From assembly GCF_017348835.2 (NCBI RefSeq), contig NZ_CP072315.1: a stretch of DNA of 64,000 nt. One strand, given 5' to 3'. The notes beneath the pieces are model-generated. The model was not told the origin of the DNA, made no database searches, and saw only the letters and a program-made list of their open reading frames with translations. A program made the position numbers and the translations under genes. Of the stretch, positions 54,363-64,000 are shown in pieces (within the stretch, counting starts at the first letter, position 1; each line of letters begins with the position of its first letter). Origin of the DNA: Escherichia coli (GTDB lineage Bacteria; Pseudomonadota; Gammaproteobacteria; Enterobacterales; Enterobacteriaceae).

Positions 54363-57300
54363 ATGAGAAAATCAGGTTTAGGTTTAGCCCTGTTGTTTTC
54401 TTTAATTGCTCCGATTAAAGCGGTCTATGCCGAAGCGATTATGATTTCAGGAAAGCTACAGGCTGATTTGCCAGCCGTATCCTTTGACCCGGGGCCGGGC
54501 GACTTTGTTGCATACGTTAATTCTAACACTATCACTGCCTCAGGTGCAGGCACAGCCTGTAATGTAACGGTTGATGATCGAGCGACTTCCTCTGTTGATA
54601 ACCTCGTTTGTTTTTTTGAGTGGTTACCCAATACCTTGGGATTTACTTCTAACGGTTTCACTCTTTCAGGCGTTCCCAACACCACCGGTGATTTAAAACT
54701 ACCTTACAAGATTTCTTACTTCTCTGGTTCTGAACGGAAAAAAGTTGAAATAGTAAAAGGTGAATATTCAATCAAAAGTGTGGCACCGGTAAAACCTACT
54801 ATCACCGGTCTTAAATCATCCCTGAACGGATTAGTCTATGACGGCTTTTCTTTCAAATCGTATTTAAAGGATGAAGCGATCAAAGATATCGCTGTTTCTG
54901 TTGAGCCCCGCAATTATATTCAATACATCTCAATAGGTTCAGGCTCCGCCTGTGAAGTTCCTATTGGCGGAACTTCCTGTACCATTGAAGTTGGAAGCAT
55001 TAAGGCCAGTGATACAGATGAACTTTTGGGTTCACGTGATATCACAATTACAGCAAACTCTAAGAATAATTATTTCGCACCTCCTGAATCCAAAAAGCTT
55101 GTTGTTAACTGGGATTATCGGCCTCCTGTAGTAGACCATACACTTTGGAATTTTACCGATGAGGCTAAAACAATCAAAGTAGGTGGCCAGGACATCTATA
55201 CCGGAGCCAAAACCGTTGCTGTGGCCGTTAAGGTACCCCAGCAAGAAACAGAAGGTGAATGGTGGCTCCCAACAGCTATGTCGCTCACTATGACTCCGGA
55301 TGGCGTGTTTAAACCGACGACTAAAGTGACTTTAGATGATGGCACTGAGATTGATTTCAAACAGTCCTGGGCAACCCCTTTACGTAGAACTTTACAGCCG
55401 GTAAGTGGACCTCAAAAAGTCGGTGATGAGTACCTCTATATCTTCGACTTAACGGATCTTATAAACGGGTCCTACGCAGCGACTTTTACAGTAGAAAATA
55501 CGAGCAAAAACTCTTCTACGTACACTGAGCCTGAAAGCAAACTGATGCTGTCTGATAACCCAACGCTTATGGTTCTCAAAGATGGGCAGGTATTAACTAA
55601 ACGAGCACCCGTATACTTCCTGAACGAGATTATCGTTGCAGCTTTCCAGGGGCAGGCTGGGGTTGCTGACATAAAATCAGTAACAATAGACAACAAAGTA
55701 GTTTCGTTAACACCTACAAATTATAGAGGTATTTACTACCTGCCGGTTGGAGACGATTTAGCAGTTAATTCGGATCACGAGATTACTGTGGTGGCTGAAA
55801 ACCTTTATGGAAAAAACGTTAATTTCAGTACCGTTTTCACTTATCAACCTACTGGATTCACTCTCAAGAATCTGGAAAAAAACGTAACTCTTTACTCGCG
55901 TGTACGTCAGTATACGGACCTGCTTAGTCAAACAGCTGGTGATAAATGCACTCTGTTTACCACAGAGGAAAATGCGAATGCTTACCTCGCCTGGTATGGG
56001 GAAAAATCAGATGTTACAGCATGCTACCCTCAGTGGAACAATGTCCCTGATGGGTTGGAGTTCTATTTTAAAGGACGTACCCCGGGTCTAACTGGATTCT
56101 TTAATAAAACAGGTGAGAATCTGCTCGACTATCAAGTCTATATGATTAACGGGAAGGGCTCTAAAGCGGTATCCGCAAGGAATCGCCGTACTCTGACCAC
56201 ACAATTACCATACAACCCGATCATCTCTTACAAAAAGAATAAAGTCATAGCTGGCATCAATCCGAACACTGCTCTGGCTTATACGACCGGGGGGGAGGCC
56301 GCTCGAATATTAGCGAAGGTGGTACCAGCTGACGTTACGATGATCGTCTCTCAAAACGGCTCTGAGGCTGTCAAAACGTCATTTAAAAATCGTTCCTCAA
56401 ACAACGATGCAACGACCTTTGTACAAAGGGTTAAGGTTGCTGCTGCACCATTGTGGACAAAGAACGTCTTTGACATAGCTGTAGAATACTCAAAGGATCC
56501 AGAATTAAGAACTACAGACACACTCAACGTATATACGGTGCCTGATTTCAATATTCGAGCATCGATGGAAGTGGATGACAGAAAAACAGCCACATCTCTT
56601 GAAGTGCCCTTAAAGGTAACAGTGGGGCGTTATAACAACTCCACACGTAAAAGTGCATTTGACCGTAAAACAATGGGAGAATGGGACGTCACGATATACT
56701 CGCAAAAAAGTGTATACGGCAAAGATCCAGAAACAGGCCGTTATAAAACTACATACGAAAGAACTGCGCTGACTGAAGCATTGCCGGTCAATGATGCGGG
56801 CATTGTCGAAACCAAGATTAAAATTGAAAATATGGATCTGGGTAATATGCGTCTGGTTGGTGTGGCTAAGGTCAGATCGCCATTCTCTGATTTTGAAATG
56901 AAACGTGAGACCAGTGCTGTAGGCATTCGAATCTATAAAGGTGAGGAACTGGAGGGTAACCTGTCGAAAAGCCTTATTATCGGAAGGATCCCACTTAGTA
57001 CTCTGGTAAGCTTCAAATCTGCCAGTACTGCTAACTCTGACGCACTTGCCCCCACCGAATGGCAGCAGTCCTCTGATAATGGTCAAACCTGGAATATGCT
57101 TTCCGACATGACCGGAAAGAGAAGTGTAAGTATCAAAAAGACAGAAGTAGGAAAGTGGCTTTATAGGGCAAAAATGACCAATAAATTCACATCTAAGGTT
57201 TCCTACACAGATGCCTTAACGGTAGTTACCTACAAGCAGCCTAAGCTCAGTATAGATGTGACAGACATTCTTCAGGGCTCAGATGTACCTGTAACCCTGC

Positions 57301-58667
57301 TTGATAACGATGAGCCTATACCAGCAGGCACCGCTGAGGTTCTCTGGTCAGAGGATAAAGTCAACTGGGTGCAGGGAGATACAACTTACACTGTGGCTTC
57401 AGCTGATACCCTACCGTCTACGATTTATGCCCGGATGCGTTACCTTGATTCCGATGAACTGGCAGAGGAGTCTTCATGGAAGGAAACGTCTGCTCGGTTG
57501 GCAGCCGCAAAACCCAAGCGCCTTTCTGTCTCGGTAACGGGGGTTTCTAAGGTAGAGGTTGGTCAAAAAGTTACTTTGGAAGGTAAGTTCACGAACCCTA
57601 ACAGTAAGTACCAGAATGGTAATAACGTAGTTGAAGAATGGAAAACACCGGATGGCCAGACATTTAAAGGCTCTACACTGTCTGTTACCCTTACTGAGCA
57701 AATGTTGGATAAACAGGGATATGCTGCTTTTGAATACAGTGCATGGTTAGCGGACAATAAGGAGAATACGGTTTCTACCCGTAGAGTTTCTGTCAAATCG
57801 TGGGTTTATAAATTCCCCGAAATGAAAATAAGCTCCAAACTTAAATACGACATGGCACCGACCACCCTACGCGTTGCGTTGAGCGGTATTAAGGATGGAG
57901 ACTATCCTGGTGTTACTTATTCCCGAGAATGGATTTACGACAAAGAGAATCTGGTAATCACTAAAGATGAAGGTGACACCAAAGAATTTACAATTGAAAA
58001 TCCTGGCAAATATACATTGATGGTTGTTTTCAAAGATAACCGCAACAATGAACAGCGTATCGAAAATACCTTTGTTGTCGATGAACAAACGCCAATGAAC
58101 GTTGAGATGACACCCAAGTTCTCTAACAAATATATGAGAGCTCCACTCGATGTAACCTTAAGGTCAAACATCAAGCTATCTCATTCGGCGGACTCGATAG
58201 ATACGGTCACATACAAGGTGAACGGTGAGGTAATACCCAGCGGCAAAAATTATTGGGCTCAACTGATTTCGGGTTTAAAAGAAAAGAAATACGAGATCAC
58301 AATTGATGTTGTTAGTAAACTTGGACAGAGAGGTTCAGCATCTGTTGAGTTTGATGTCGTTAAAAACGCAGTGCCTAATTGTACATTGAGCTACACGGAA
58401 ACCAACCTAAGCTGGAGCTTTACCAATAAATGTGATGATACTGATGGAAAAATGGTTAGATATGAATGGTTCATCAACGGCGAATTAAGGAACGTTTTCG
58501 GTAGTACGGCTACACTTTCTAAAAACCTTAACCGTGGTAAGCAGGACATAAAAGTAATTGCTTATGATGATAGTGGAGACTTTGCAACGCAGCACGTGAC
58601 AGTTTTCGGACCGGCTGAAGAGGCAAGTAAGTCTGAAAACACTGTATCAATACCAAGCAGTGAGTAA
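54363..58667 (+). CDS. very large secreted Ig-like/adhesin-like protein (1434 aa)
   Basis: Signal peptide MRKSGLGLALLFSLIAPIKAVYA; Thr/Ser/Val/Asn-rich repeated modules; shares the CxxPxGGTSC motif with the three ~800-aa paralogs; strong terminator downstream. Confidence 0.75.
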   Translation: MRKSGLGLALLFSLIAPIKAVYAEAIMISGKLQADLPAVSFDPGPGDFVAYVNSNTITASGAGTACNVTVDDRATSSVDNLVCFFEWLPNTLGFTSNGFTLSGVPNTTGDLKLPYKISYFSGSERKKVEIVKGEYSIKSVAPVKPTITGLKSSLNGLVYDGFSFKSYLKDEAIKDIAVSVEPRNYIQYISIGSGSACEVPIGGTSCTIEVGSIKASDTDELLGSRDITITANSKNNYFAPPESKKLVVNWDYRPPVVDHTLWNFTDEAKTIKVGGQDIYTGAKTVAVAVKVPQQETEGEWWLPTAMSLTMTPDGVFKPTTKVTLDDGTEIDFKQSWATPLRRTLQPVSGPQKVGDEYLYIFDLTDLINGSYAATFTVENTSKNSSTYTEPESKLMLSDNPTLMVLKDGQVLTKRAPVYFLNEIIVAAFQGQAGVADIKSVTIDNKVVSLTPTNYRGIYYLPVGDDLAVNSDHEITVVAENLYGKNVNFSTVFTYQPTGFTLKNLEKNVTLYSRVRQYTDLLSQTAGDKCTLFTTEENANAYLAWYGEKSDVTACYPQWNNVPDGLEFYFKGRTPGLTGFFNKTGENLLDYQVYMINGKGSKAVSARNRRTLTTQLPYNPIISYKKNKVIAGINPNTALAYTTGGEAARILAKVVPADVTMIVSQNGSEAVKTSFKNRSSNNDATTFVQRVKVAAAPLWTKNVFDIAVEYSKDPELRTTDTLNVYTVPDFNIRASMEVDDRKTATSLEVPLKVTVGRYNNSTRKSAFDRKTMGEWDVTIYSQKSVYGKDPETGRYKTTYERTALTEALPVNDAGIVETKIKIENMDLGNMRLVGVAKVRSPFSDFEMKRETSAVGIRIYKGEELEGNLSKSLIIGRIPLSTLVSFKSASTANSDALAPTEWQQSSDNGQTWNMLSDMTGKRSVSIKKTEVGKWLYRAKMTNKFTSKVSYTDALTVVTYKQPKLSIDVTDILQGSDVPVTLLDNDEPIPAGTAEVLWSEDKVNWVQGDTTYTVASADTLPSTIYARMRYLDSDELAEESSWKETSARLAAAKPKRLSVSVTGVSKVEVGQKVTLEGKFTNPNSKYQNGNNVVEEWKTPDGQTFKGSTLSVTLTEQMLDKQGYAAFEYSAWLADNKENTVSTRRVSVKSWVYKFPEMKISSKLKYDMAPTTLRVALSGIKDGDYPGVTYSREWIYDKENLVITKDEGDTKEFTIENPGKYTLMVVFKDNRNNEQRIENTFVVDEQTPMNVEMTPKFSNKYMRAPLDVTLRSNIKLSHSADSIDTVTYKVNGEVIPSGKNYWAQLISGLKEKKYEITIDVVSKLGQRGSASVEFDVVKNAVPNCTLSYTETNLSWSFTNKCDDTDGKMVRYEWFINGELRNVFGSTATLSKNLNRGKQDIKVIAYDDSGDFATQHVTVFGPAEEASKSENTVSIPSSE
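55323..55333. promoter_or_regulatory. palindrome site AAAGTGACTTT (dispersed family)
   Basis: Read directly, inside the 1434-aa gene. Confidence 0.25.
57566..57577. promoter_or_regulatory. palindrome site AAAAGTTACTTT (dispersed family)
   Basis: Read directly, inside the 1434-aa gene. Confidence 0.25.
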
Positions 58668-58682
58668 TAAATTTTTAAATAT

Positions 58683-58712
58683 AAAGCCGGGACATTTTGT
58701 CCCGGCTTTTTT
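58683..58712 (+). terminator. rho-independent terminator after the 1434-aa gene
   Basis: Hairpin AAGCCGGGAC-ATTTT-GTCCCGGCTT followed by TTTTTT. Confidence 0.7.
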
Positions 58713-58944: not shown

Positions 58945-59457
58945 ATGAGCGACTACATACCTAAAAAGAGAGGGCTGCTTATACTGGATTGGTATGTCCC
59001 CATTAATATTTTATTGCTGATTCTCGTTATGTGTGTCTTTTTCACCCGTTATACATTTGGATACGGTTTATTGAATGGGTGCCTGCCTGCTGATTTTTAT
59101 ATGATTGATCATTCGGATAAAACTATTAAAACTGGTGAACTCATAGCTTTCAACATGCCGAAATCGGTTCGTTTTATCCCAGAAAATGAACGAGTCATAA
59201 AAATTGTTGCCGGTGTGGGCGGTGACAAACTCAAAGTAACAATGGATGGGGTTTATAACGGGGACAAATTTTTTGAAGCTAATGCACGTCGTATTTCAAA
59301 GAAATACAGTATTCCGTCCATTTTGATTGAAAAAGAATTGATAATTCCTGAAGGCGAAGTTTTCCTAATTGGGCAAACCGATCACTCATGGGATTCCCGT
59401 TTTTGGGGAACAGTAAAGCTGAATTCAGTAATTGGGAAAACATATGCGATCTTTTAA
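58945..59457 (+). CDS. trhP: TraF(RP4)-type signal peptidase I-like pilin-processing peptidase (TrhP-like)
   Basis: 170 aa with N-terminal TM segment and S26-like C-terminal region; position before traW/traU homologs. Confidence 0.6.
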   Translation: MSDYIPKKRGLLILDWYVPINILLLILVMCVFFTRYTFGYGLLNGCLPADFYMIDHSDKTIKTGELIAFNMPKSVRFIPENERVIKIVAGVGGDKLKVTMDGVYNGDKFFEANARRISKKYSIPSILIEKELIIPEGEVFLIGQTDHSWDSRFWGTVKLNSVIGKTYAIF

Positions 59458-60955
59458 TGTAAATAAAAAATATTTACCAATACTTCCTGGACTTGCGTTA
59501 TGTGCAGTTTTAAGTAATACAAATGCAAGCACTGAGTATCAACATGATGCTGACCTAATCGCTCAGCAAGCAAAAGGGCTTGGCGCTCAGGCTAAAGGTG
59601 CACAGCAGCCAGATGGGGCTCTTAGCCTTGATGCTACGCTAAATTCACCAGATGTGCAGAAGTACATTGCGCAAGCTGAAGCACTCAAAAAAAACCAGGA
59701 CCTGAGCAGGCAAACAAACCGTGGTTACGTGCCCGGTATGAATGCGGATAGTGTTCAAGCAGTTATAGACCATACCCAGGCTATAAGGGCCCAAAGTAAT
59801 AACTCTGATGCTGTCAACGATATAATTAGAAGACGTGATGAAATTCAGGAAAACGCCAGCCTTAATGAAGCGGCTCTGAAAGCTGTGGAAAATAAGCCGG
59901 AAGTCATGCGAGGACAATCTAAAAATATCGAAAAATTGTTTGGTTCCTCGGGCATCACAGCTGCTGACTTCGAAAGAAAAATGGATAGCACACGTGAAGA
60001 AGCACTATCAACTGAAAATGGTATAACGATCTTTGCTTCATTTAGCTTACCGGATTATGTACTGGAAGACCTTTTACGTACGGCCTCAGAGCATAAAGCT
60101 CGTGTAGTTTTCAATGGTCTAAAGAAAGGAACTACTCGGCTACCAGAGACACAGGCAGCAATAAACCAAATGATTGTCAAAGGAAAATTTGAATCTCCTT
60201 TGATTACAATTGATCCTGATAGCTTCAGTCAGTATCAAGTAACTCAAGTACCGACAATTATTTCTCGGGAGCAAGCTCGTTTTGCAAAAATGGTAGGGTC
60301 CTTCAACGTTGAGTTTTTTCAGCGAGAACTTGCTAAAAAACCCGATCAGGACATTTTTCCTGTTGCTGGTACGATTTATCCCGTTGAAGAAAAGAGCATC
60401 ATTAAAGAACTGGAAGAACGCGCACAAAAATATGACTGGGAAGGTGCAAAAAAAAGGGCCGTTGCGGACACCTGGAAAAATCAATGGATGGTCGATCTCC
60501 CTCCTGCCCAGGAACACAAAGAATTTTTAATTGACCCTACAGTGAGGGTCACTCAGGACGTAAAAGATAAGCAGGGCCGTGTAATAGCTTCCGCCGGTGA
60601 GTTGATTAATCCACTTTCGAGATTTCCTCAAAACCTGACGATGATAATTTTCGATCCACTCAATCCGGGCCAGCTGGTATGGGCTGAGCAGCAGTATCGA
60701 CAACGTCTGGGTAGTGGAAAAGTAATGCCAATGTTTACCCGTATCCAAAAAGATAATGGATGGGATCACCTAAATGATTTACGTGAAAAATTTAACGGTA
60801 AGGTGTTTAAAGTAAACGAACAGATTATCTCACGCTTTCAGATTAAAAATACACCTGCGCTTATAACTACTGACCAAGATAAATTCCGGATCACCCTGTT
60901 TAGCGAGGCAGAAGTCCGTGGAATCGGAGCCCCAAATCTTTCAGAGGAAAAATAA
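59444..60955 (+). CDS. trhW: TraW/TrhW-like pilus assembly protein (503 aa)
   Basis: ATG start with signal peptide MRSFNVNKKYLPILPGLALCAVLSNTNA (track uses upstream TTG); position in conserved W-U-N order. Confidence 0.5.
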   Translation: MRSFNVNKKYLPILPGLALCAVLSNTNASTEYQHDADLIAQQAKGLGAQAKGAQQPDGALSLDATLNSPDVQKYIAQAEALKKNQDLSRQTNRGYVPGMNADSVQAVIDHTQAIRAQSNNSDAVNDIIRRRDEIQENASLNEAALKAVENKPEVMRGQSKNIEKLFGSSGITAADFERKMDSTREEALSTENGITIFASFSLPDYVLEDLLRTASEHKARVVFNGLKKGTTRLPETQAAINQMIVKGKFESPLITIDPDSFSQYQVTQVPTIISREQARFAKMVGSFNVEFFQRELAKKPDQDIFPVAGTIYPVEEKSIIKELEERAQKYDWEGAKKRAVADTWKNQWMVDLPPAQEHKEFLIDPTVRVTQDVKDKQGRVIASAGELINPLSRFPQNLTMIIFDPLNPGQLVWAEQQYRQRLGSGKVMPMFTRIQKDNGWDHLNDLREKFNGKVFKVNEQIISRFQIKNTPALITTDQDKFRITLFSEAEVRGIGAPNLSEEK

Positions 60956-60956
60956 T

Positions 60957-61091
60957 ATGAAACTCGGATTTATTATAGGCGCTCTCTTTGCAACATGGCT
61001 GACGCTAAATTATCCGGACCAGATGAGAAGTTATTTTACCAAAGCCGTCGACTATATCGAAAGTGTTGCAACATTTATTACATCCAAGTGA
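60957..61091 (+). CDS. small hydrophobic protein (44 aa), not in ORF track
   Basis: GAGGAAA RBS 8 nt upstream; reads MKLGFIIGALFATWLTLNYPDQMRSYFTKAVDYIESVATFITSK; fills the trhW-trhU gap. Confidence 0.3.
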   Translation: MKLGFIIGALFATWLTLNYPDQMRSYFTKAVDYIESVATFITSK

Positions 61092-61093
61092 GC

Positions 61094-62155
61094 ATGATGG
61101 TGAAAAAATTCAAAAAGTTACTTTTAGAGTTCATTGTAGCAGTTATGCTTTCGCTTTCTATACCTGGTATGGCTATGGCAGCAGATGCTGGAGTCCCTGG
61201 GGCTATGTGTCAGTCAGCTGGAGTGTGGCAGGGCTTGATTAAGAATATCTGTTGGAGCTGCATTTTTCCCATGAGGATAATGGGCATAGGGGCTGCTCCA
61301 GAAGGCGCTGCACCTTCACGTCCGGGTTGCTACTGCACAGATCAGAACGGCGTACCGGAAATAGGTTGGCAATTGAGCTTCTTTCAGCCGGTGAAGATTG
61401 TAGAAGTTGTAAAGAGCCCCTGGTGCAGCCCCTTTCTTGAAGGCACGATGCTTCAAAAATCGCAGTTTGATATTGGTAAAAGCAACACTAATCAGCCAAT
61501 GACAGCAACTGAAGCCGGATTTTACGATGTTCATCTTTGGGAGTTCCCAATCATGACAATGCTCAAATTACTGATTATTGGCGAGTGCACTGCTGAACCC
61601 TATATAGATGCCAGCCTGACCTATATAAGCGAAGTGGACCCTATGTGGGAAAGTGATCTGCTTACACTCGTCCTGAATCCCGAGGCAGTAGTTTTTGCAA
61701 ACCCAATTGCCTCAATGGTGTGCGCTGCTGACTGTGTAGCAGTAACAGCAGGAAAGGATAATCTCGCTGCATACTTTTGTGCCGGATGCGATGGCAACCT
61801 TTACCCATTAACCGGCCACATTTACGCAAATGATGACGCTGTAAGGACGAGTTCACTGATTACCCAGCGTCTTCTGACAAAACTACATCGCCAAGGCATG
61901 CTGATGCGAACGATGGGAGCAGACGCAATGTGTGAGAAAACGTGGGAATACTTTACACCACGTTCCCAGTATCGGCTTTCAATGCTTTTCCCTACTCCTG
62001 AGGCGAAGGGACCGGATTGCTGTCATCGTCTTGGTGATTCGGTACACGACTGGTCAACCCTTAAAGGTGGGCGCAAAAAAATAGGCAACGATAATTATGT
62101 CTATATGTTGTGGCGTTACAATGACTGTTGTGTTCGCTACGTTCCAGGCGTTTGA
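61094..62155 (+). CDS. trhU: TraU/TrhU-like pilus assembly protein (Cys-rich, secreted)
   Basis: Start at internal ATG (MMVKKFKK...) 2 nt after the small ORF stop; signal peptide; many conserved cysteines. Confidence 0.65.
   Translation: MMVKKFKKLLLEFIVAVMLSLSIPGMAMAADAGVPGAMCQSAGVWQGLIKNICWSCIFPMRIMGIGAAPEGAAPSRPGCYCTDQNGVPEIGWQLSFFQPVKIVEVVKSPWCSPFLEGTMLQKSQFDIGKSNTNQPMTATEAGFYDVHLWEFPIMTMLKLLIIGECTAEPYIDASLTYISEVDPMWESDLLTLVLNPEAVVFANPIASMVCAADCVAVTAGKDNLAAYFCAGCDGNLYPLTGHIYANDDAVRTSSLITQRLLTKLHRQGMLMRTMGADAMCEKTWEYFTPRSQYRLSMLFPTPEAKGPDCCHRLGDSVHDWSTLKGGRKKIGNDNYVYMLWRYNDCCVRYVPGV
61113..61125. promoter_or_regulatory. palindrome site AAAAGTTACTTTT (dispersed family)
   Basis: Exact 13-bp palindrome at the 5' end of trhU. 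Confidence 0.35.
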
Positions 62156-62173
62156 TTTCTAAGGAGAAAATAA

Positions 62174-64000
62174 GTGAAACTTAGAAAAACAATCACCTCA
62201 GCGATTATTGCATCAATGGTTGCCAATACTATGAGTTGGGCTTTTTATGTCACACTCATAAACATGGTAATGACACCACGTGTTTACGCTGCTGACGCTA
62301 TATTTGACCAGCTCGAAAATAATTTTAACCTTGCAAATCCTAACGCAAATCGCAATGCAACCACCAGTGCTCAGGACATTGTGGAGAAATACAAGAACGC
62401 GGATTCAGGCGAGAATGTCAGTGGGAAGATCACCGAGAAATACGTGGGTAAAGCCGAATCCGCTAATCTTAATCTCGGGAAGTATGGGGCAGGGAACTCT
62501 AATGAAAGTGTCATGAAAAATGCCGCATCCGATGGAAAGTCTATTGGTAGCGCCGTACAACTGCCGAGTATGTCTGGAGGGACAATCAATTCAAACTACA
62601 CCAAGGAAGGGGCAAAGCTGCTCTCTCGTGATGCTAATGGCAACATTGGTATAAGCAGTAATCCCAATACTACTCCTGGAACCAAAACAAATACGGGAGA
62701 GATTTTCAGCTCAGAGCAAAAGCACAGCGATATAAAGTTCAACGCCGCAGATCGTTATGGGGATGAGGATGGCTTTGTTAACGATATAAAGAATCGGAAA
62801 AGCCAGTTATTTGATGCTCAAAGTTATGATGGCGTTGCCTACCGCACCCTCGTAAATGCTAACAAGGACAACCCGGCATCGTCTGTAAAGCCTAACGATC
62901 CCATGTTTACTGCGGGGAGAAATGAGATAACCAATGCTGTTGCTGGTACTGGAAACTGGCTTCAGAACTGTAATGTTGAGACCTCCAAAAAAACAGTAAC
63001 CACACACTATCCTGATTACAAAGAGTTCTACTGTAACTCGCCTAAGCAAGATAACTTCAGCAGCTGCACGATAACTCGTGACTTCTCTGTTCCTGTATAC
63101 ATTTCAGGCGGAAACGGAGACATGTCGATGTGCGGCGATAATTGTGTGCGTATATGGTTTGGTCGCCGTGATGACAACTACTGGAGTGACGGGGTATTTG
63201 ATAACGAACTGACATTAAAATTCCATCCGGATGCAAAATTGGCCTCAGCAAAGATTGTTAACGCGGAGTGGGATGACCACATGCGGGTAACACTTGATGG
63301 CACGCAGATTTTTGCTCACATAGATGGTGCATATCGAGAAAGTGACTATCCGGCTCCAAAGGGATCTTGGGAGTTAAAAAAATCGTGGAAACTCGACAAA
63401 GTATACGATGTAACTGAAAAGGTCAGAAAATCAGTTTATGAAGAACCTGATCGTGAAGTGACAATGGCATCCAGAGTCTGGGTTGGTGGGGGAGGTGAAG
63501 GGTACTTTGAGGTTGAGCTGACGTTTGAAAATATGAAGCTCGAAGATAAGCACGTCCAGGAACCAGCTGGTTGTTACGATGCTGTACAAACACCAAATAC
63601 ATTCTGCCGTTTCGATCGGTTTAAAGATATGGATGTTGGCACGAAGCGGCTTCCGGAAAGCGTGCTTTCTATGGCAAAGCCGCTGTATGAAGGCGATAAA
63701 GGCTTTCTTACCTGGAAGACTAACCTTGAAGGCTATTTTTGTGATCCATTGGCTAAAGACAAGATTTGCTCTTATGACGCCAGTGGGAAAATTATGAAAG
63801 ACGCTAATGGAAAGGACCTCTGTTACAACTACGAAGAAATTAAGAGTATGCCTGATGCATGTAGTTCTTATAAAAATGATGCAGCATGTGTACTCGATAA
63901 ACAAACATGTGCAGAGGGTTGGTTCGATGAGGGCACTAACAGCTGCTACATGTATGAACAGAAATACACCTGTGACAGAGGTAAGGATGTAGTTCGTGAG
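62174..64000 (+). CDS. trhN: TraN/TrhN-like mating-pair stabilisation protein, 5' part (truncated by window end)
   Basis: GTG start 7 nt after AAGGAG RBS; open frame of 609 codons to the window edge with no stop, so absent from the ORF track; Cys-rich C-terminal part. Confidence 0.6.
   Translation, partial: MKLRKTITSAIIASMVANTMSWAFYVTLINMVMTPRVYAADAIFDQLENNFNLANPNANRNATTSAQDIVEKYKNADSGENVSGKITEKYVGKAESANLNLGKYGAGNSNESVMKNAASDGKSIGSAVQLPSMSGGTINSNYTKEGAKLLSRDANGNIGISSNPNTTPGTKTNTGEIFSSEQKHSDIKFNAADRYGDEDGFVNDIKNRKSQLFDAQSYDGVAYRTLVNANKDNPASSVKPNDPMFTAGRNEITNAVAGTGNWLQNCNVETSKKTVTTHYPDYKEFYCNSPKQDNFSSCTITRDFSVPVYISGGNGDMSMCGDNCVRIWFGRRDDNYWSDGVFDNELTLKFHPDAKLASAKIVNAEWDDHMRVTLDGTQIFAHIDGAYRESDYPAPKGSWELKKSWKLDKVYDVTEKVRKSVYEEPDREVTMASRVWVGGGGEGYFEVELTFENMKLEDKHVQEPAGCYDAVQTPNTFCRFDRFKDMDVGTKRLPESVLSMAKPLYEGDKGFLTWKTNLEGYFCDPLAKDKICSYDASGKIMKDANGKDLCYNYEEIKSMPDACSSYKNDAACVLDKQTCAEGWFDEGTNSCYMYEQKYTCDRGKDVVRE

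What the first reader, a model, noticed from the sequence alone, without database searches (positions are those of the whole stretch)
60957..64000. Two genes missing from the ORF track: a 44-aa hydrophobic ORF and the TraN-like gene running off the window
A 44-aa ORF with a good RBS exactly fills the trhW-trhU gap. A 609-codon open frame with a GTG start after AAGGAG continues to the window edge without a stop, which is why the track omits it.
Basis: seen in the sequence. Interest (0 to 1): 0.25.

Follow-up and report, generated by a model that had tools for sequence, protein, structure and literature searches.

The report
Overlooked small gene beside truncated trhN
The end of this window is the known pilus-assembly operon of an IncHI2 resistance plasmid: the long open frame is the ordinary trhN gene cut by the window edge, and the 44-codon ORF between trhW and trhU is a real, conserved but usually unannotated small membrane-protein gene of unknown role.

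Summary
Both observations are correct, and both genes are absent from the ORF list for mechanical reasons: one is too short, the other runs off the edge.

**trhN.** The window is 100% identical to hundreds of IncHI2 plasmids. The frame from GTG 62174 to the window edge is the first 609 codons of trhN. In identical plasmids the gene is intact at 1062 aa. The fragment alone passes NCBI's IncHI TraN equivalog model, and the start position is conserved in four other lineages. This gene is already known.

**The 44-aa ORF (60957-61091).**
- It starts 1 nt after the trhW stop, behind a conserved AGAGGA, and ends 2 nt before the first possible trhU start.
- It is retained in the same slot in IncHI1, in Photorhabdus elements and in one unassigned contig.
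- It shows coding-type divergence: 20 of 31 differences fall at third codon positions, and omega is about 0.11-0.14. Its dN equals that of trhF and trhW.
- It belongs to an uncurated enterobacterial small-protein family that shares an N-terminal transmembrane motif.
- It is absent from IncHI3, IncC and Rts1.
- NCBI's PGAP annotation usually omits it, and the R27 literature treats the region as intergenic.

Its function is untested. My inference is a single-pass inner-membrane accessory protein, translationally coupled to trhW and trhU. Interest is low to modest.

The parts
59444..60955 (+). trhW, a TrbC/TraW-type pilus assembly gene. It is the upstream neighbour, and its last codons carry the small ORF's ribosome-binding site.
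   Evidence: Pfam TrbC_Ftype. NCBIfam TraW and TrbC. PGAP CDS in the identical plasmid L001.
60943..60948 (+). Shine-Dalgarno-like AGAGGA, with an 8-nt spacer before the small ORF's ATG.
   Evidence: Read from the sequence. The core CAGAGGA/CAGGAGA is conserved in IncHI1A, IncHI1B, L013 and L014.
60957..61091 (+). Gene for a 44-aa small protein: MKLGFIIGALFATWLTLNYPDQMRSYFTKAVDYIESVATFITSK. Predicted N-terminal transmembrane helix, a Tyr-Pro break, then an amphipathic helix.
   Evidence: ORF. Conservation and omega of 0.11-0.14. Syntenic homologues. Wider family. AlphaFold2 gives helices 3-18 and 20-43 with pLDDT 83.5. Annotated as a hypothetical protein in OW969785.1. The IncHI1 homologue is annotated as WP_022652169.1 and WP_000689657.1.
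61094..62155 (+). trhU (TraU family). Candidate starts are ATG 61094, ATG 61097 and GTG 61100; PGAP uses 61100. The N-terminus is signal-peptide-like.
   Evidence: Pfam TraU at 276.6 bits. PGAP CDS. Position 61094 aligns with a GTG in IncHI1.
62161..62166 (+). Shine-Dalgarno AAGGAG of trhN, with a 7-nt spacer before the GTG.
   Evidence: Read from the sequence.
62174..64000 (+). trhN, the first 609 of 1062 codons, cut by the window end. IncHI TraN-type mating-pair stabilisation protein.
   Evidence: NCBIfam NF011459 at 1433.7 bits on the fragment and 2530.8 bits on the full length. Pfam F_T4SS_TraN at residues 542-696 of the full protein. Identical to L001 7375-9201. The start position is conserved.

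Best explanation
The region is the distal end of the Tra2 'AN' operon of an IncHI2 plasmid, in the order rsp, trhF/trhP, trhW, small ORF, trhU, trhN.

**Shown.** trhN is the ordinary 1062-aa IncHI TraN homologue and is simply truncated by the window edge. The 44-codon ORF is a genuine protein-coding gene under purifying selection. It is kept in the trhW-trhU slot across the IncHI1, IncHI2 and Photorhabdus clade. It also belongs to an uncurated family of small enterobacterial proteins with the shared N-terminal motif M-[KR]-[LI]-G-F-x2-G-x5-W-L-[TS]-L-x-Y-P.

**Inferred, with lower confidence (about 0.35).** The product is a single-pass inner-membrane protein. K2 would face the cytoplasm, residues 3-18 would span the membrane, and the amphipathic C-terminal helix would sit in the periplasm. 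It would be made by translational coupling, since it starts 1 nt after the trhW stop and ends 2-8 nt before the trhU start. It would act as a dispensable or modulatory accessory of the periplasmic F-type pilus-assembly proteins TrhW, TrhU and TrhN, not as a core component, because sister systems lack it.
For: **Identity of the region.**
- 100% nucleotide identity to IncHI2A plasmids.
- PGAP annotates rsp, trhF, TrbC-family, trhU and trhN in the identical plasmid.

**trhN.** NF011459 equivalog and Pfam TraN hits. Intact 1062 aa, with the window part identical and the start conserved.

**Small ORF: coding-type divergence.**
- tblastn finds it in 1400 plasmids: 1115 at 99% identity or above (all sampled rows in this band are 100%) and 283 at 60-80%.
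- In IncHI2 versus IncHI1, 20 of 31 differences fall at codon position 3 (P = 3.7e-4).
- dN is 0.146-0.151, against 0.144 for trhF and 0.133 for trhW. dS is 1.1-1.3, giving omega of 0.11-0.14.
- The 44- versus 43-codon difference is a point change (AAG to TAG) backed by the conserved TGA. It is not an indel.

**Small ORF: conserved architecture.** The Shine-Dalgarno site, the ATG 1-2 nt after the trhW stop and the 44-codon length are all kept in L013 and L014, where TrhW is only 62-76% identical.

**Small ORF: wider family.** A full HMM search and a profile search find about 36 clusters. They include stand-alone chromosomal genes that start at the same M-K/R-L-G-F.

**Structure and transcription.**
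- AlphaFold2 predicts two helices broken at Y19-P20.
- The gap has no promoter-like site, terminator-like site or stable RNA fold. The folding z-score is +1.74.
- In R27, RT-PCR shows trhW to trhU co-transcription, and the interval has no promoter activity (PMC7366339).
Against: - There is no direct evidence of translation, such as ribosome profiling or proteomics.
- The gene is absent from IncHI3, where trhW and trhU overlap by 4 nt. IncC has an EAL-domain gene in the same slot, and Rts1 has traW and traU as adjacent ORFs 216 and 217. It therefore cannot be a core component of the type IV secretion system (T4SS).
- Chromosomal homologues lie in varied contexts unrelated to conjugation. The family's function is therefore not specific to conjugation.
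- Topology is weakly determined, because the net charge on the C-terminal flank is about 0.
- Against the Photorhabdus copy, substitutions are saturated and show no third-position excess.
Confidence: 0.8

Rival explanations
1. The 44-codon ORF is a chance open frame in a non-coding trhW-trhU spacer. The spacer's real role would be RNA processing or differential mRNA stability within the AN operon.
For: The window holds 302 ORFs of at least 44 aa, so the ORF alone proves nothing. PGAP does not call it in most IncHI2 records. The R27 transcript study treats the interval as an intergenic region and maps transcript ends around it.
Against: Differences are biased to third codon positions and omega is about 0.1, with dN equal to that of the neighbouring genes. 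The ORF, its start and its Shine-Dalgarno site are retained in four lineages down to 57-60% nucleotide identity. Homologous stand-alone genes exist elsewhere. No stable RNA structure or terminator is found. The '249 bp' spacer arises from placing the trhU start at Met36; the real gap is 144 bp and is filled by the ORF.
Confidence: 0.07
2. The gene is real but starts at GTG 60918, giving 57 aa and overlapping the last 38 nt of trhW, as automatic gene callers in public collections have it.
For: The protein collections hold 57-aa versions that start MESEPQIF.... An in-frame GTG at the same position exists in IncHI1.
Against: All stand-alone family members and the Photorhabdus and L013 copies begin at M-[KR]-[LI/A]-G/V-F. 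The conserved Shine-Dalgarno site precedes the ATG, not the GTG. The upstream GTG lies in a trhW codon context (CGT GGx) that is conserved for TrhW's own sake. In variant P0003 the extension changes at 3 of 13 residues, against 2 of 44 in the core.
Confidence: 0.08
3. The ORF matters only because it is translated. It would be a coupling or leader ORF that carries ribosomes from trhW to the weakly initiating trhU start, with the peptide itself having no function.
For: The spacing is very tight: 1 nt after the trhW stop and 2-8 nt before the trhU start. No obvious Shine-Dalgarno site precedes trhU. [quoted passage not shown]
Against: The amino-acid sequence is under purifying selection. The same N-terminal motif is conserved in monocistronic chromosomal homologues that have no downstream coupled gene. 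IncHI3 couples trhW directly to trhU without such an ORF.
Confidence: 0.15

Closest known systems
TrhN of IncHI plasmids (R27 R0005; NCBIfam NF011459), homologue of the F-plasmid TraN mating-pair stabilisation protein
   Same: Full-length match to the equivalog model. Same position after trhU. The start codon position is conserved. The protein is cysteine-rich (32 Cys) with a signal-peptide-like N-terminus. The Pfam F_T4SS_TraN domain is present.
   Different: Nothing differs. Only 609 of 1062 codons lie inside the window, and the start codon is GTG instead of the ATG of IncHI1 and IncHI3.
RefSeq 'hypothetical protein' WP_000689657.1 and WP_022652169.1 (43 aa, between trhW and trhU of IncHI1 plasmids) and ENA CAH6213577.1 (IncHI2)
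   Same: Same slot, same ribosome-binding site and start arrangement, 74-77% amino-acid identity. CAH6213577.1 is 100% identical.
   Different: The IncHI1 copies are one codon shorter (AAG to TAG). None has a name, family or function. Most IncHI2 records and the R27 reference numbering (R0007 trhW, R0006 trhU) lack the gene.
Stand-alone small hypothetical proteins of Enterobacterales chromosomes (47-80 aa; Serratia rhizosphaerae, Klebsiella, Kluyvera intermedia, Providencia alcalifaciens, Dryocola)
   Same: They share the N-terminal roughly 30 residues, M[KR][LI]GF..G....WL[TS]L.YP..M...F.K, at 40-55% identity.
   Different: They have longer, polar and acidic C-terminal tails. They are monocistronic and lie in contexts unrelated to conjugation: fimbrial operons, a Big_1 invasin, feoABC, MliC/PBP5 and PerC.
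Small membrane proteins encoded inside F-type transfer operons (for example TraL, TrbI and other small tra/trb products of F; recalled from knowledge)
   Same: Small, hydrophobic, and embedded between pilus-assembly genes with coupled translation signals.
   Different: No sequence relationship was detected. There are no Pfam, NCBIfam, PDB, PHROG or PADLOC hits. It is also absent from F-like, IncC, IncHI3 and Rts1 operons at this position.

Membership tests
IncHI TrhN / F-type TraN (NF011459, PF06986) | Score above the curated cut-off of the equivalog model NF011459 | tested here: met
   The window fragment scores 1433.7 bits against a cut-off of 1267, over model positions 1-609. The full-length protein from the identical plasmid scores 2530.8 bits over 1-1062.
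IncHI TrhN / F-type TraN (NF011459, PF06986) | Pfam F_T4SS_TraN domain | tested here: met
   The full-length protein scores 57.3 bits against a cut-off of 23, at residues 542-696. The window fragment alone gives no Pfam hit at E <= 0.01, because the domain is cut at residue 609.
IncHI TrhN / F-type TraN (NF011459, PF06986) | Intact reading frame beyond the window and synteny trhW-trhU-trhN | tested here: met
   The gene is 1062 aa with a single terminal stop in L001, whose DNA is identical over the shared 1827 nt. The same gene order is seen in IncHI1, IncHI3, IncC and Photorhabdus.
IncHI TrhN / F-type TraN (NF011459, PF06986) | Outer-membrane location and a role in mating-pair stabilisation | not testable with these tools
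   Only the annotation and the literature statement cited in PMC7366339 are available.
Unnamed small-protein family (this ORF, WP_000689657.1, chromosomal homologues) | N-terminal motif M-[KR]-[LI]-G-F-x2-G-x5-W-L-[TS]-L-x-Y-P at the very start of the protein | tested here: met
   In the alignment of 14 members, M1, F5, G8, L15, Y19 and P20 are invariant. G4, W14, L17 and F27 are conserved in at least 90%. HMM E-values run from 1e-11 to 1e-4 for distant members.
Unnamed small-protein family (this ORF, WP_000689657.1, chromosomal homologues) | Purifying selection on the peptide | tested here: met
   Omega is 0.11-0.14 for IncHI2 versus IncHI1 and 0.21 within IncHI1.
Unnamed small-protein family (this ORF, WP_000689657.1, chromosomal homologues) | Translated and inserted in the membrane | not testable with these tools
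   Only hydropathy and the AlphaFold2 helices are available.
Curated families of T4SS, phage or defence small proteins (Pfam, NCBIfam, PHROGs, PADLOC, PDB) | Significant profile match | tested here: not met
   No hit reaches a curated cut-off or falls below E = 0.005.

The most novel reading that the evidence does not exclude
The 44-aa product would be an unrecognised, lineage-specific component or modulator of the IncHI1/IncHI2 H-pilus transfer apparatus. For example, it could be a membrane tether for the periplasmic TrhW/TrhU/TrhN assembly, or a determinant of the differential trhW versus trhU-trhN expression seen in R27. It would also be the first handle on an uncharacterised enterobacterial family of small membrane proteins. 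Several chromosomal members of that family sit beside surface-adhesin loci: fimbriae and a Big_1 invasin. In IncHI the gene lies two genes downstream of the Ig-like RSP adhesin.
Probability: 0.25. Interest if true: 0.4.

Novelty: new member of a known kind. Interest (0 to 1): 0.25.

Why it matters
IncHI1 and IncHI2 plasmids are major carriers of multidrug resistance, including mcr-1, tet(X4) and resistance in typhoid strains. Their transfer genes are studied as targets.

A conserved gene inside the AN operon is missing from the R27 reference numbering and from most PGAP annotations. The region has also been analysed experimentally as 'intergenic'. This omission could confound interpretation of polar mutations, transcript mapping and reporter fusions in that interval.

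The practical gain is modest. It amounts to a corrected gene map (144 bp containing a 43-44-codon gene, not a 249-bp spacer) and one small-protein family worth a knockout. The trhN part is a window-edge artefact with no biological news.

Tried and rejected
- **Curated libraries.** Pfam, NCBIfam, PHROGs, PADLOC and PDB sequence searches of the small protein and of 14 family members gave nothing significant.
- **First protein search.** A word-index search with the single peptide returned only 56-57-aa IncHI2 versions. The exhaustive HMM search was needed to reach the wider family.
- **Non-coding reading of the gap.** I looked for promoter-like sites, terminator-like sites and RNA structure and found none. 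The fold is weaker than that of shuffled sequences, with z = +1.74. This reading was rejected.
- **Same ORF in other systems.** I looked for it in IncHI3, IncC and Rts1. It is absent from all three.
- **A misleading hit.** NZ_CP037911.1 (57% identity) is an indel-ridden assembly, not a divergent lineage.
- **Conserved partner gene.** I looked for one next to the chromosomal homologues and found none. Their contexts are heterogeneous.
- **Antisense ORF.** The 157-aa antisense ORF inside trhN (63431-63904) carries 3-4 stops in the other lineages and was rejected as spurious.
- **Literature.** I found no paper that names or tests the small ORF.
Full report
**What the sequence shows**

The stretch 58.9-64.0 kb of the window carries a tightly packed run of genes on the + strand:

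| Feature | Coordinates | Note |
|---|---|---|
| S26 signal-peptidase gene | 58945-59457 | |
| TrbC/TraW-type gene | 59444-60955 | |
| 44-codon ORF | 60957-61091 | |
| TraU-family gene | 61094/61100-62155 | |
| Open frame from GTG | 62174-64000 | 609 codons, no stop |

The small ORF's ATG lies 1 nt after the trhW stop (TAA, 60953-60955). AGAGGA (60943-60948) precedes it with an 8-nt spacer. Its TGA stop (61089-61091) lies 2 nt before the first possible trhU start.

AAGGAG (62161-62166) precedes the GTG at 62174 with a 7-nt spacer.

Both genes are missing from an ORF list for mechanical reasons. ORFs that run off the source are not listed. The small ORF is shorter than a 60-aa threshold even in its longest 57-aa form.

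**Where the window comes from**

The region 60800-64000 is 100% identical to hundreds of IncHI2A plasmids of Escherichia, Salmonella, Enterobacter and Klebsiella. In total 1117 PLSDB records match.

In the identical plasmid NZ_CP021727.1, PGAP annotates rsp, trhF, a TrbC-family protein (TrhW), trhU, trhN and trhI. This is the distal part of the Tra2 'AN' operon described for R27 (PMC7366339).

**trhN**

- The window's 1827 nt are identical to that record. The full frame has a single terminal stop.
- The 609-aa fragment alone scores 1433.7 bits against NCBIfam NF011459 (IncHI TraN equivalog, cut-off 1267), aligned to model positions 1-609. The full protein scores 2530.8 bits.
- The full protein carries the Pfam F_T4SS_TraN domain at residues 542-696. 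The window edge cuts that domain, which explains why the fragment gave no Pfam hit.
- The GTG aligns with the ATG start codon of IncHI1A, IncHI1B, IncHI3 and a Photorhabdus element.

This gene is known. Nothing unusual was found in it.

**The small ORF is a real gene**

An ORF of 44 codons is not evidence by itself: the window holds 302 ORFs of that size or larger. The evidence comes from comparison with other lineages.

*Distribution.* tblastn finds the peptide in 1400 plasmids. Of these, 1115 are at 99% identity or above (all sampled rows are 100%), including the Enterobacter IncHI2 lineage that is 96% identical in DNA. Another 283 are at 60-80%, and these are IncHI1-type plasmids.

*Substitution pattern.* The table compares IncHI2 with IncHI1.

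| Measure | Small ORF | Neighbouring genes |
|---|---|---|
| Nucleotide identity | 76% | synonymous sites saturated |
| Differences at codon position 3 | 20 of 31 (binomial P = 3.7e-4) | |
| dN | 0.146-0.151 | trhF 0.144, trhW 0.133 |
| dS | 1.1-1.3 | |
| Omega | 0.11-0.14 | |

*Length difference.* The 44- versus 43-codon difference is not an indel. It is AAG to TAG, one codon ahead of a conserved TGA.

*More divergent elements.* The same architecture is kept in Photorhabdus elements (L014-L016; P0008 is named Photorhabdus heterorhabditis by its source) and in an unassigned contig (L013). That architecture is a Shine-Dalgarno site inside the end of trhW, an ATG 1-2 nt after the trhW stop, 44 codons, and a TGA a few nt before trhU. 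In these elements TrhW is only 62-76% identical and the small protein 52-55% identical.

*Alternative readings of the gap.* The gap has no promoter-like or terminator-like site. Its RNA fold is weaker than that of shuffled sequence, with z = +1.74. A structured non-coding element is therefore not supported.

**It belongs to a wider, uncurated family**

An exhaustive HMM search of 1.84 billion representative proteins gave 18 hits. A profile search of the 5.8-billion-protein collection gave 36 clusters.

Apart from IncHI-type copies, the hits are stand-alone proteins of 47-80 aa in chromosomes of Serratia, Klebsiella, Kluyvera, Providencia, Dryocola and Enterobacter. All are named 'hypothetical' and none has a Pfam domain.

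They share the first roughly 30 residues. M1, F5, G8, L15, Y19 and P20 are invariant. G4, W14, L17 and F27 are nearly so. After that they diverge into polar, acidic tails.

Every member starts at M-[KR]-[LI]-G-F. This argues that ATG 60957, not the upstream GTG 60918 chosen by automatic callers, is the true start.

The contexts of the chromosomal members are heterogeneous:
- chaperone-usher fimbrial operons, twice;
- a Big_1 invasin;
- feoABC;
- MliC/PBP5;
- PerC.

No common partner gene emerged. Pfam, NCBIfam, PHROGs, PADLOC and PDB gave no significant match.

**Anatomy and likely mechanism**

Residues 3-17 are strongly hydrophobic, with a 15-residue Kyte-Doolittle mean up to 2.0. The rest is amphipathic. 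AlphaFold2, run with a 5-sequence alignment, predicts helices 3-18 and 20-43 broken at Y19-P20, with mean pLDDT 83.5.

From this I infer the following:
- The product is a single-pass inner-membrane protein of signal-anchor type, with K2 inside and the C-terminal helix in the periplasm. This topology is weakly determined.
- It is made by translational coupling with trhW and trhU.
- It acts as an accessory to the periplasmic F-type assembly proteins.

The accessory role is an inference and has not been shown. Three observations count against any core role:
- IncHI3 plasmids (TrhU 78% identical) have trhW and trhU overlapping by 4 nt with no such ORF.
- IncC plasmids carry an EAL-domain gene in the same slot.
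- Rts1 has traW and traU as adjacent ORFs 216 and 217.

The slot between W and U is evidently a variable insertion point in MOBH/MPF-F systems.

**Relation to the literature**

R27 gene numbering runs R0007 (trhW), R0006 (trhU), R0005 (trhN), with no gene between trhW and trhU.

The R27 transcript study describes a 249-bp trhW-trhU 'intergenic region'. It found no promoter activity in it and showed trhW to trhU co-transcription by RT-PCR.

The 249-bp figure corresponds to a trhU start at Met36, which removes the predicted signal peptide. With the PGAP start the gap is 144 bp, and the 43-codon ORF fills it.

So the ORF is transcribed in R27, but it has been overlooked as a gene. Some database records do annotate it as a hypothetical protein: WP_000689657.1, WP_022652169.1 and CAH6213577.1. 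I found no paper that names or tests it.

**Verdict**

trhN is already known and is merely cut by the window. The small ORF is a genuine, conserved and under-annotated small-protein gene of an uncharacterised family. It is a useful annotation correction and a reasonable knockout candidate, but it is not surprising for a conjugative transfer operon. Interest is 0.25.

Noticed in passing
window 61094-61200; L006 5144-5250: The R27 literature's '249-bp trhW-trhU intergenic region' implies a trhU start at Met36 (MCQSAG...). That start would delete the signal-peptide-like N-terminus (V/MKKxKKLLLE...AMA|AD). With the PGAP start the gap is 144 bp. Some GenBank records (CP047536.1) also start trhU 45 nt late.
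   Followed up: yes
L009 3498-3501; L011 2809-3474; L012 2857-3528: The trhW-trhU junction is a variable slot among MOBH/MPF-F elements. IncHI3 has a 4-nt overlap, IncC has an EAL-domain gene, and IncHI1, IncHI2 and Photorhabdus have the 43-44-aa gene. One IncHI3 plasmid (L010) has a TnpB-family gene inserted there.
   Followed up: partly
L018, L023, L027 (chromosomal homologues); window 54363-58667 (rsp): Several family members lie next to surface-adhesin loci: two chaperone-usher fimbrial operons and a Big_1/invasin giant protein. The plasmid copy lies two genes downstream of the Ig-like RSP protein. This may be coincidence, since adhesins are common in islands.
   Followed up: partly
window 58683-58712: A GC-rich hairpin followed by a T-run (AAGCCGGGAC-ATTTT-GTCCCGGCTTTTTTAT) lies just after the rsp stop, in the rsp-trhF spacer. 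It looks like an intrinsic terminator. The simple scan did not list it. The homologous R27 spacer was reported to have promoter activity.
   Followed up: no
window 63431-63904 (- strand): A 157-aa antisense ORF lies inside trhN. The equivalent region in IncHI1 and Photorhabdus has 3-4 stops in every antisense frame, so it is a chance ORF.
   Followed up: yes
NZ_CP119735.1 (hit H1); NZ_CP126784.1 (hit H84): Natural IS insertions occur in this gene block in some IncHI2 plasmids: an IS2 within the region matching window 60800-64000, and an IS1 within trhU. About 14% of matching plasmids (153 of 1117) are typed as non-mobilizable.
   Followed up: no
L008 (NZ_CP037911.1): The only tblastn hit below 60% identity is an assembly full of single-base indels. 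Almost no CDS is listed in 10 kb. It is not a divergent lineage.
   Followed up: yes
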